64,000 bases of DNA from Escherichia coli (GTDB lineage Bacteria; Pseudomonadota; Gammaproteobacteria; Enterobacterales; Enterobacteriaceae), in the NCBI RefSeq assembly GCF_024223415.1, contig NZ_CP100500.1; one strand, 5' to 3'. The notes under the pieces are model-generated. The model ran no database searches. It saw nothing but the letters and a program-made list of their open reading frames with translations, and was not told where the DNA came from. Each line of letters starts with the position of its first letter. Positions within the stretch are counted from its first letter, which is position 1. Below are positions 31,239 through 32,793 of the stretch, piece by piece. The position numbers and the translations under genes were made by a program.

Positions 31239-32384
31239 ATGAAAATCGTAATCGCCCCAGACTCTTATAAAGAAAGTTTATCTGCCAGCGAGGTTGCGCA
31301 GGCGATAGAAAAAGGATTTCGGGAAATTTTTCCTGATGCACAGTACGTTTCTGTTCCTGTTGCCGACGGTGGCGAAGGAACGGTGGAAGCGATGATTGCA
31401 GCCACCCAGGGTTCCGAACGTCACGCCTGGGTTACAGGGCCGCTGGGCGAGAAAGTGAATGCCAGTTGGGGGATCTCCGGCGATGGCAAAACCGCGTTTA
31501 TTGAAATGGCGGCGGCCAGTGGGCTGGAGCTGGTACCTGCGGAAAAACGCGATCCACTCGTGACCACTTCACGCGGCACAGGCGAGTTAATCCTGCAGGC
31601 GCTGGAGAGCGGCGCGACAAACATTATTATCGGCATTGGCGGCAGCGCTACAAATGATGGCGGCGCAGGCATGGTACAGGCGCTGGGGGCGAAATTATGC
31701 GACGCCAACGGCAATGAAATTGGTTTTGGCGGCGGTAGTCTTAATACTCTGAATGATATTGATATTTCCGGCCTCGATCCGCGCTTAAAAGATTGCGTCA
31801 TTCGCGTCGCTTGTGATGTCACCAATCCGCTGGTGGGCGATAACGGCGCATCGCGCATCTTTGGCCCACAAAAGGGAGCCAGTGAAGCGATGATTGTTGA
31901 GCTGGACAATAACCTCTCTCACTATGCCGAGGTCATTAAAAAAGCGCTGCATGTTGATGTGAAAGATGTCCCCGGCGCAGGAGCTGCTGGCGGTATGGGA
32001 GCGGCGCTGATGGCGTTTCTTGGTGCGGAACTGAAAAGTGGTATTGAAATCGTCACTACGGCGCTGAATCTGGAGGAACATATTCACGATTGTACGCTGG
32101 TGATCACCGGTGAAGGGCGTATTGACAGCCAGAGTATTCACGGCAAGGTACCGATTGGCGTCGCAAACGTGGCGAAGAAGTACCATAAACCGGTGATTGG
32201 CATTGCGGGTAGCCTGACCGATGATGTTGGCGTTGTACATCAGCATGGTATTGATGCGGTCTTCAGCGTACTGACCAGCATTGGTACGTTGGACGAAGCA
32301 TTCCGCGGGGCTTATGACAATATCTGCCGTGCTTCACGTAATATCGCCGCGACACTGGCGATTGGAATGCGCAACGCGGGGTGA
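31239..32384 (+). CDS. garK: Glycerate 2-kinase
   Basis: ORF 31158..32384; start MKIVIAPDSYKESLSA gives 381 aa. Confidence 0.88.
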   Translation: MKIVIAPDSYKESLSASEVAQAIEKGFREIFPDAQYVSVPVADGGEGTVEAMIAATQGSERHAWVTGPLGEKVNASWGISGDGKTAFIEMAAASGLELVPAEKRDPLVTTSRGTGELILQALESGATNIIIGIGGSATNDGGAGMVQALGAKLCDANGNEIGFGGGSLNTLNDIDISGLDPRLKDCVIRVACDVTNPLVGDNGASRIFGPQKGASEAMIVELDNNLSHYAEVIKKALHVDVKDVPGAGAAGGMGAALMAFLGAELKSGIEIVTTALNLEEHIHDCTLVITGEGRIDSQSIHGKVPIGVANVAKKYHKPVIGIAGSLTDDVGVVHQHGIDAVFSVLTSIGTLDEAFRGAYDNICRASRNIAATLAIGMRNAG

Positions 32385-32409
32385 CAAGGGCGCGCAAACC
32401 CTCTATACT
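32381..32409 (+). promoter_or_regulatory. rnpB promoter (-35 GTGACA, -10 TATACT)
   Basis: GTGACA at 32381-32386 and TATACT at 32404-32409 with 17-bp spacer, ending 7 nt before rnpB 5' end; -35 overlaps garK stop codon. Confidence 0.6.
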
Positions 32410-32416
32410 GCGCGCC

Positions 32417-32793
<377 letters not shown>

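What the first reader, a model, noticed from the sequence alone, without database searches (positions are those of the whole stretch)
32381..32417. rnpB promoter -35 element overlaps the garK stop codon
GTGACA (32381-32386) contains the garK TGA stop, and TATACT lies 17 bp downstream, 7 nt before the mature M1 RNA 5' end. This compact arrangement implies garK read-through transcription runs directly into rnpB.
Basis: partly seen in the sequence, partly recalled or inferred. Interest (0 to 1): 0.2.

Follow-up and report, generated by a model that had tools for sequence, protein, structure and literature searches.

The report
Known rnpB promoter overlapping garK stop

Summary
GTGACA (32381-32386) contains the garK TGA stop (32382-32384). 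TATACT (32404-32409) follows after a 17-bp spacer. The GC-rich discriminator GCGCGCC (32410-32416) separates it from G32417, the first base of rnpB (Rfam RF00010, 318.6 bits, 32417-32793).

The window is E. coli, and from 32283 to the end of rnpB it is identical to K-12. Two published 5'-end data sets place the rnpB transcription start on this G: Kim 2012 (1,690 reads, 0-nt leader) and SMRT-Cappable-seq (transcript 3270592-3270215).

garK is followed directly by rnpB in all 80 Enterobacteriaceae loci sampled. In 77 loci the promoter is (G/A)TGACA-N17-TATA(C/A)T-N7-G. Eight species have the garK stop detached from the hexamer, yet GTGACA stays 17 bp from the -10 box, so it is conserved as a promoter element.

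Read-through from garK is plausible. [quoted passage not shown] That same study shows read-through is not needed for rnpB function.

One small extra: the first -35 base is the wobble base of garK's last Gly codon. It is always a purine, never the synonymous T that would give consensus TTGACA.

Already known; low interest.

The parts
31239..32384 (+). garK (glycerate 2-kinase) coding sequence, 381 codons plus TGA
   Evidence: ORF list and translation. RefSeq annotation of a 100%-identical E. coli genome, transferred to window coordinates.
32382..32384 (+). garK stop codon TGA, followed by C (UGAC context)
   Evidence: TGAC is the stop context in 72 of 80 related loci; where the stop is detached from the hexamer it is TAA in 8 of 9.
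32381..32386 (+). -35 hexamer GTGACA (5/6 of TTGACA) of the rnpB promoter. Its first base is the wobble base of garK's last Gly codon; bases 2-4 are the stop codon.
   Evidence: TGACA is invariant in the 78 aligned sequences; the first base is G in 71 and A in 7. It is retained at 17 bp from the -10 box in 8 species whose garK stop lies 7-47 nt upstream.
32387..32395 (+). variable upstream part of the 17-bp spacer (-30 to -22)
   Evidence: Column conservation is only 45-82%.
32396..32403 (+). conserved spacer block AAACCCTC (-21 to -14)
   Evidence: 91-100% conserved across 78 sequences. Its role was not determined.
32404..32409 (+). -10 hexamer TATACT (5/6 of TATAAT)
   Evidence: It is TATACT in 76 and TATAAT in 2 of 78 sequences.
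32410..32416 (+). GC-rich discriminator GCGCGCC between the -10 box and +1
   Evidence: Positions -6 to -1 are 99-100% conserved; -7 varies among G, T and C.
32417..32417 (+). transcription start, which is also the mature 5' end of M1 RNA (G)
   Evidence: Published start-site maps, matched to the window by sequence identity and to the K-12 annotation.
32417..32793 (+). rnpB, RNase P RNA class A (M1 RNA), 377 nt
   Evidence: Rfam RF00010, 318.6 bits against a gathering score of 100, full-length model match. RefSeq annotation.
32803..32834 (+). rnpB intrinsic terminator: AAAAACCCGC / GCGGGTTTTT stem with a 4-nt loop, then a T-rich tail
   Evidence: Perfect 10-bp inverted repeat I4 and reading. 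The terminator position listed in the SMRT-Cappable-seq table (3270194) converts to window 32815, inside the hairpin loop. The simple scanner missed it, probably because the A/T pairs absorb the T-run.

Best explanation
The site is the main (proximal) sigma-70 promoter of E. coli rnpB. RNA polymerase holoenzyme contacts GTGACA (-36 to -31) and TATACT (-13 to -8) across an optimal 17-bp spacer. It starts at G32417, which is already the mature 5' end of M1 RNA, so no 5' processing is needed. The seven G/C bases between the -10 box and +1 form a discriminator of the kind found in rRNA and tRNA promoters. Together with two hexamers that are each one base short of consensus, this is expected to tie rnpB output to growth rate and to ppGpp (inferred from the class; not tested here). 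Transcription stops at the hairpin at 32803-32826, and the 3' tail is then trimmed.

garK ends inside the -35 hexamer, so there is no space for a terminator. Any polymerase still transcribing the induced gar operon will run through the promoter into rnpB and produce a 5'-extended RNA. That read-through is a by-product and is not required for RNase P RNA supply.

Shown here: the positions, the mapped start, the conservation and the independence from garK. Inferred: sigma-70 dependence, stringent control, and the actual occurrence and fate of read-through RNA.
For: The hexamers, spacer and distance to +1 were read directly and found by the scan. rnpB boundaries come from Rfam and RefSeq. The start is mapped at exactly this G in two published 5'-end data sets, and their sequence is identical to the window.

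CRISPRi data: targeting rnpBp or rnpB is deleterious, while targeting garP, garL, garR or garK is not.

Conservation: in 77 related Enterobacteriaceae loci plus the window, TGACA, the -10 box, CGCGCC and +1 onwards are 97-100% conserved. Spacer positions -30 to -22 and the garK wobble positions vary. Eight species have the garK stop 7-47 nt upstream, yet GTGACA remains exactly 17 bp from the -10 box.

Within E. coli, 5,425 of 5,426 complete genomes carry the 70-nt segment and 5,022 are at least 99% identical. In strain VG48B2 an IS421 insertion duplicated GGTGACAAGG. This left an intact garK stop and an intact -35 hexamer about 1.35 kb apart, so the sequence from about -37 downstream suffices in a viable strain.

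No + strand terminator-like site lies between the start of the gar operon and rnpB's terminator.
Against: No experiment was done here. Sigma-70 dependence and ppGpp sensitivity rest on promoter-class knowledge and on paper titles seen in reference lists (Park et al. 2002; Motamedi, Lee and Schmidt 1984), because those papers are not in the held library. The motif score alone (10/12) is not rarer than chance in 64 kb. The held SMRT-Cappable-seq tables show no transcript joining garK (b3124) to rnpB, so read-through is undocumented for the conditions of that study. One species (Siccibacter turicensis, L075) has a rearranged promoter, so the architecture is not absolutely fixed.
Confidence: 0.96

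Rival explanations
1. M1 RNA's 5' end is made by endonucleolytic processing of a garPLRK-rnpB read-through transcript, and the hexamers upstream are incidental.
For: garK and rnpB are 32 nt apart on the same strand with no terminator-like site between them. A single transcription unit covering garP to rnpB is described.
Against: SMRT-Cappable-seq, a method based on capping primary 5' ends, places a start at this G, and TSS profiling does the same. Blocking transcription in garP, garL, garR or garK by CRISPRi causes no fitness defect, whereas targeting rnpBp does. A viable E. coli strain has about 1.35 kb of IS421 between garK and the promoter. The hexamers are conserved far above neighbouring neutral positions.
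Confidence: 0.02
2. GTGACA is conserved only because it carries the garK stop codon and the last Gly codon. The promoter works mainly through its -10 box and discriminator, and the '-35' assignment is coincidental.
For: Three of the six bases are the stop codon and one is a codon base, so coding constraint exists in 71 of 80 loci.
Against: In 8 species the stop is a separate TAA or TGA 7-47 nt upstream, and GTGACA is still present exactly 17 bp from the -10 box. The two bases after the stop (CA, non-coding) are invariant in the 78 aligned sequences. The wobble base at -36 is restricted to G or A, although all four bases are synonymous; by contrast, none of 108 other four-fold sites in garK lacks both pyrimidines. 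A reference-list title reports that mutations in the rnpB -35 region alter promoter behaviour (title only).
Confidence: 0.02
3. The match is a chance resemblance to promoter consensus with no function.
For: Matches of at least 10/12 occur about 10 times by chance in 64 kb on both strands.
Against: The placement relative to the RNA 5' end, the mapped start, cross-genus invariance and the CRISPRi phenotype all argue against chance.
Confidence: 0.005

Closest known systems
[quoted passage not shown]
   Same: The sequence is identical to K-12 from 32283 through the end of rnpB. The gap between garK and rnpB is the same 32 nt. The mapped start is the same. The unit and its internal promoter are described.
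   Different: Nothing in the promoter differs. The window comes from another E. coli lineage: it is 100% identical to O78 strain 3 and others, has 5 substitutions in the last 284 nt of garK relative to K-12, and carries about two and a half copies of the repeat downstream of rnpB.
Stringently and growth-rate controlled stable-RNA promoters (rrn P1, tRNA promoters) with a GC-rich discriminator
   Same: It has a 7/7 G+C discriminator immediately before +1, hexamers that are sub-consensus yet conserved, a stable RNA product, and a start at the mature 5' end.
   Different: The spacer is the optimal 17 bp, whereas my recollection is that rrn P1 has 16 bp. The region upstream of -35 is G+C-rich garK coding sequence, so there is no A/T-rich UP element. 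The ppGpp/DksA response was not testable here.
Intra-operonic or gene-overlapping promoters in bacterial operons (for example, promoters embedded in the 3' end of an upstream ORF)
   Same: The promoter elements share bases with the upstream coding sequence and stop codon, and the downstream gene can be reached both from its own promoter and by read-through.
   Different: The downstream gene here is an essential non-coding ribozyme RNA rather than a protein gene. From my recollection of Ko et al. 2008 (not readable here), the 5'-extended read-through RNA is reportedly degraded rather than matured.

Membership tests
sigma-70 (housekeeping) promoter | -35 hexamer resembling TTGACA | tested here: met
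   GTGACA, 5/6. TGACA is invariant in the 78 aligned sequences.
sigma-70 (housekeeping) promoter | -10 hexamer resembling TATAAT with A at position 2 and T at position 6 | tested here: met
   TATACT, 5/6. 97-100% conserved.
sigma-70 (housekeeping) promoter | spacer of 17 +/- 1 bp | tested here: met
   17 bp in the window and in all 77 aligned related loci, with no indels. The only exception is L075, which has a 13-nt spacer deletion and a new TTGCAA at 18 bp.
sigma-70 (housekeeping) promoter | experimentally mapped primary 5' end 5-9 nt downstream of the -10 box | tested here: met
   Published maps place the start at the G that lies 7 nt after TATACT, with sequence identity to the window.
sigma-70 (housekeeping) promoter | transcription by E-sigma70 in vitro, or loss on mutation of the hexamers | not testable with these tools
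   The primary papers (Motamedi 1984; Park 2002) were seen only as references and are not held.
stringent / growth-rate-controlled stable-RNA promoter | GC-rich discriminator between the -10 box and +1 | tested here: met
   GCGCGCC at 32410-32416. CGCGCC is 99-100% conserved.
stringent / growth-rate-controlled stable-RNA promoter | down-regulation by ppGpp/DksA | not testable with these tools
Bacterial RNase P RNA class A (Rfam RF00010) | covariance-model score above the gathering threshold over the full model | tested here: met
   318.6 bits against 100, model positions 1-367. The same holds in 9 related loci.
garPLRK-rnpB read-through transcription unit | same strand, adjacent, with no intrinsic terminator between garK and rnpB | tested here: met
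   The gap is 32 nt, and there is no + strand terminator-like site in 26500-32800. Caveat: the scanner also missed the real rnpB terminator.
garPLRK-rnpB read-through transcription unit | an RNA molecule spanning the garK-rnpB junction | not testable with these tools
   The unit is stated in a CRISPRi preprint. The held SMRT-Cappable-seq tables list only the rnpB-alone transcript and none with b3124.

The most novel reading that the evidence does not exclude
The stop/-35 overlap is a conserved dual-use sequence in which the promoter, not the gene, sets the rules.

First, the promoter forces garK to end in TGA-C. From my recollection of the literature, this is the weakest E. coli termination context. 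The next in-frame stop is 37 codons into rnpB.

Second, the promoter holds the wobble base of the last Gly codon as a purine. The synonymous GGT would create a perfect TTGACA, and it is never seen.

This suggests purifying selection against a consensus -35 box, probably to keep the promoter responsive to growth-rate and stringent control.
Probability: 0.55. Interest if true: 0.2.

Novelty: already known. Interest (0 to 1): 0.08.

Why it matters
It matters little beyond correct annotation. The rnpB promoter and its start site have been known since the 1980s and have been re-mapped by genome-wide methods, and the garP-to-rnpB unit is already described. The arrangement is a tidy textbook example of a promoter embedded in the end of an upstream gene, and of an essential RNA gene kept independent of the inducible operon in front of it. 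The only modest addition from this work is comparative. The overlap is conserved across Enterobacteriaceae, and the promoter constrains garK's stop codon and last wobble base, with the consensus -35 T apparently avoided.

Tried and rejected
1. An 8-bp perfect inverted repeat flanks the -10 box: GGCGCGCA 32389-32396 and TGCGCGCC 32409-32416 (I8). In read-through RNA it could form a hairpin ending at -1. Across 59 distinct sequences, 73.5% of cells pair, which equals the shuffle mean of 73.8%, and covariation is no higher than in shuffles. The fold energy z-score is -0.16. I rejected it as a conserved structure; it is probably a by-product of a G+C-rich spacer next to an invariant discriminator.

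2. An upstream promoter-like site inside garK (TTGGCA-17-GATGAT, 32197-32225, 9/12) was a candidate for the 'tandem promoters' of Motamedi 1984. Its hexamers vary with codon wobble, and the -10-like hexamer is not conserved. I treated it as a chance match.

3. I tried to read the primary rnpB promoter papers (PMC345347 and PubMed id 18092807) and the Thomason dRNA-seq paper. None is held.

4. The Cappable-seq (Ettwiller 2016) supplements contain no rnpB entry in the held text. The Conway 2014 supplements are not held. Table S1 of Kim 2012 was cut when stored, so start sites inside garK could not be checked.

5. I looked for garK-containing transcripts in the SMRT-Cappable-seq tables and found none in the held text.

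6. Several papers that mention rnpB gave nothing on the E. coli promoter.

Full report
**What is in the sequence.** The window around the finding reads ...GCG GGG TGA CAAGGGCGCGCAAACCCTC TATACT GCGCGCC GAAGCTGACC....
- The long + strand ORF ends with TGA at 32382-32384.
- GTGACA occupies 32381-32386 and TATACT occupies 32404-32409, so the spacer between them is 17 bp.
- Seven bases (GCGCGCC, 32410-32416) separate the -10 box from G32417.
- Rfam places a full-length class A RNase P RNA at 32417-32793 (318.6 bits against a gathering score of 100).

A 901-nt segment is 100% identical to several complete E. coli genomes, in which the features are annotated as garK (glycerate 2-kinase) and rnpB. 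Transferred to the window, garK is 31239-32384. K-12 MG1655 has the same 32-nt gap between garK and rnpB. K-12 is identical to the window from 32283 to the end of rnpB.

**Is it more than chance?** The built-in scan calls the site a 10-of-12 match, the best in 31000-33400. My own scan of the whole window found it to be the only match of at least 10/12 on the + strand. There were five such matches on both strands, against about ten expected in Markov-1 random sequence. The score alone therefore proves nothing. What is non-random is that the -10 box ends 7 nt before the 5' end of a stable RNA: roughly 5 acceptable positions times 8e-5 per position gives about 4e-4. The conservation and the mapped start described below add to this.

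**Mapped transcription start.**
- Table S4 of Kim et al. 2012 (PMC3415461) lists a start at NC_000913.2 position 3268614 on the minus strand. It has 1,690 reads, is assigned to rnpB (3268238-3268614) and has a 0-nt leader. Its upstream 51-mer is ATGCGCAACGCGGGGTGACAAGGGCGCGCAAACCCTCTATACTGCGCGCCG, which is exactly window 32367-32417.
- The SMRT-Cappable-seq tables (PMC6131387) list a primary transcript from 3270592 to 3270215 on the reverse strand of NC_000913.3, containing only b3123. Position 3270592 is the annotated rnpB 5' end.

The start is G32417, which is also the mature 5' end.

**Function and relation to garK.** A genome-wide CRISPRi preprint (10.1101/2020.03.04.975888) uses this very locus as its example of an intra-operonic promoter. 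[quoted passage not shown] Targeting rnpBp or rnpB does give a defect. rnpB expression thus depends on its own promoter and not on read-through.

Reference lists show that the promoter has a long literature, but none of these papers is held in the library:
[quoted passage not shown]'.
- Park et al. [quoted passage not shown]
- Ko et al. [quoted passage not shown]

My recollection of Ko et al. is that upstream transcripts are degraded rather than matured into M1 RNA. That is memory, not a tool result.

**Comparative evidence.** A GarK-based scan of one genome per species returned 80 Enterobacteriaceae loci with 79-94% protein identity.
- rnpB follows garK directly in every locus long enough to tell.
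- In 71 loci the TGA stop lies inside (G/A)TGACA, as in the window.
- In nine loci the stop is detached. It lies 7 nt upstream in three Atlantibacter loci and in one labelled Citrobacter freundii M-21. It lies 10 nt upstream in two Cedecea loci and Buttiauxella massiliensis, and 47 nt upstream in Buttiauxella brennerae. The ninth, Siccibacter, is rearranged.
- In eight of those nine, GTGACA still sits exactly 17 bp from the -10 box.

An ungapped alignment of 78 sequences from -36 to +10 shows the pattern of constraint. TGACA, the -10 box, CGCGCC and +1 onwards are 97-100% conserved, while spacer positions -30 to -22 reach only 45-82%. The hexamer is therefore conserved as a promoter element, not merely as a stop codon.

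Within E. coli, 5,425 of 5,426 complete genomes hold the 70-nt segment and 5,022 are at least 99% identical. One strain, VG48B2, has IS421 inserted precisely here, with the target duplication GGTGACAAGG. garK keeps its stop and rnpB keeps its -35 hexamer, about 1.35 kb apart. This is a natural demonstration that the sequence from about -37 downstream is sufficient in a viable cell.

**Read-through.** No + strand terminator-like site was found from 26500 to rnpB's own terminator. The stop and +1 are 32 nt apart, so polymerases that reach the end of garK have nowhere to stop before rnpB. The first intrinsic terminator is the perfect 10-bp stem AAAAACCCGC/GCGGGTTTTT at 32803-32826. The simple scanner missed it, so its negative results deserve some caution. 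The held SMRT-Cappable-seq tables contain no transcript that includes garK. I expect, from general knowledge, that the gar operon is not induced under ordinary laboratory growth conditions. Read-through is thus structurally expected and is annotated, but it was not demonstrated here.

**A small extra finding.** The first base of the -35 hexamer is the wobble base of garK's last Gly codon. All four bases would be synonymous there.
- It is G in 65 and A in 7 of the 72 overlapping sequences, and never T or C.
- At 108 other four-fold sites in garK the median major-allele frequency is 0.58, and no site lacks both pyrimidines.
- It is also G in the eight detached promoters, where it is non-coding.
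- GGT would create consensus TTGACA. An exact-pattern scan of the metagenome collection found zero copies of the TTGACA version.

The promoter also imposes the stop context TGA-C in 72 of 80 loci, whereas detached stops are TAA in 8 of 9. If the TGA were read through, the next in-frame stop is TAG at 32496, 37 codons later. This pattern is consistent with selection to keep the -35 box one step from consensus. That fits the title of Park et al. 2002, but it remains an inference.

**Things examined and set aside.**
- The 8-bp inverted repeat around the -10 box (32389-32396 and 32409-32416) is perfect in E. coli. It shows no covariation and no more pairing than column shuffles, and the fold is not unusually stable.
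- The 9/12 promoter-like site inside garK (32197-32225) is not conserved beyond codon constraints.

**Verdict.** The feature is the already known rnpB promoter within the already described garP-to-rnpB arrangement. Interest is low.

Noticed in passing
window 32754-32836, 32867-32949 and 33086-33115: The 3' end of rnpB and its terminator are repeated downstream with a 113-nt period. The second copy is 78% identical, with a degenerate terminator. A third partial copy lies further on, and AGATGAATGACTGTCCACGAC recurs exactly at 32744 and 32845. From memory, such repeats after the M1 gene were noted in the original K-12 sequence papers. Copy number appears to differ between strains.
   Followed up: partly
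window 32396-32403 (-21 to -14): The downstream half of the promoter spacer, AAACCCTC, is 91-100% conserved across 78 Enterobacteriaceae sequences, while the upstream half is free to vary. This is more constraint than a plain spacer needs. It could be an RNA polymerase spacer contact or a regulator site.
   Followed up: no
L083 1655-3010 (E. coli VG48B2, NZ_CP128584.1): An IS4-family IS421 element is inserted exactly at the garK stop / rnpB -35 hexamer, with the target duplication GGTGACAAGG. This regenerates both the stop codon and the -35 box and separates the two genes by about 1.35 kb.
   Followed up: yes
L075 3644-3705 (Siccibacter turicensis): The promoter is remodelled. About 13 nt of the spacer are missing, so the ancestral ATGACA sits 4 nt from TATACT, and a different -35-like hexamer (TTGCAA) lies 18 bp upstream. 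The -10 box, discriminator and rnpB are unchanged.
   Followed up: partly
window 32389-32396 and 32409-32416: A perfect 8-bp inverted repeat, GGCGCGCA / TGCGCGCC, brackets the -10 box. E. albertii has a double change that keeps it perfect (GGCGTGCA / TGCACGCC). Across all genera there is no covariation signal.
   Followed up: yes
window 32382-32498: garK's stop is in the TGA-C context. From memory of the literature, this is the leakiest context in E. coli. The next in-frame stop is TAG at 32496, so read-through would add 37 residues encoded by the rnpB 5' region.
   Followed up: partly
window about 32960-33070: By eye there are two REP-like palindromic units...GCCGGATGCGGCGTGAACGCCTTAGCCTGCCTAC... 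and ...GGCGTAGGCCTGATAAGCGTAGCGCATCAGGC.... They lie between the rnpB repeats and yhaC. This probably explains why the 901-nt query hit a median of 9 places per E. coli genome.
   Followed up: no
window 33181-34368 (- strand): The yhaC ORF is intact here at 395 aa. It is annotated as a frameshifted pseudogene in the genome that is 100% identical over the 901-nt query.
   Followed up: no
window 32803-32834: The consensus terminator scanner did not report the real rnpB terminator, although it is a perfect 10-bp stem followed by a T-run. Negative terminator results from this tool should be read with care.
   Followed up: partly
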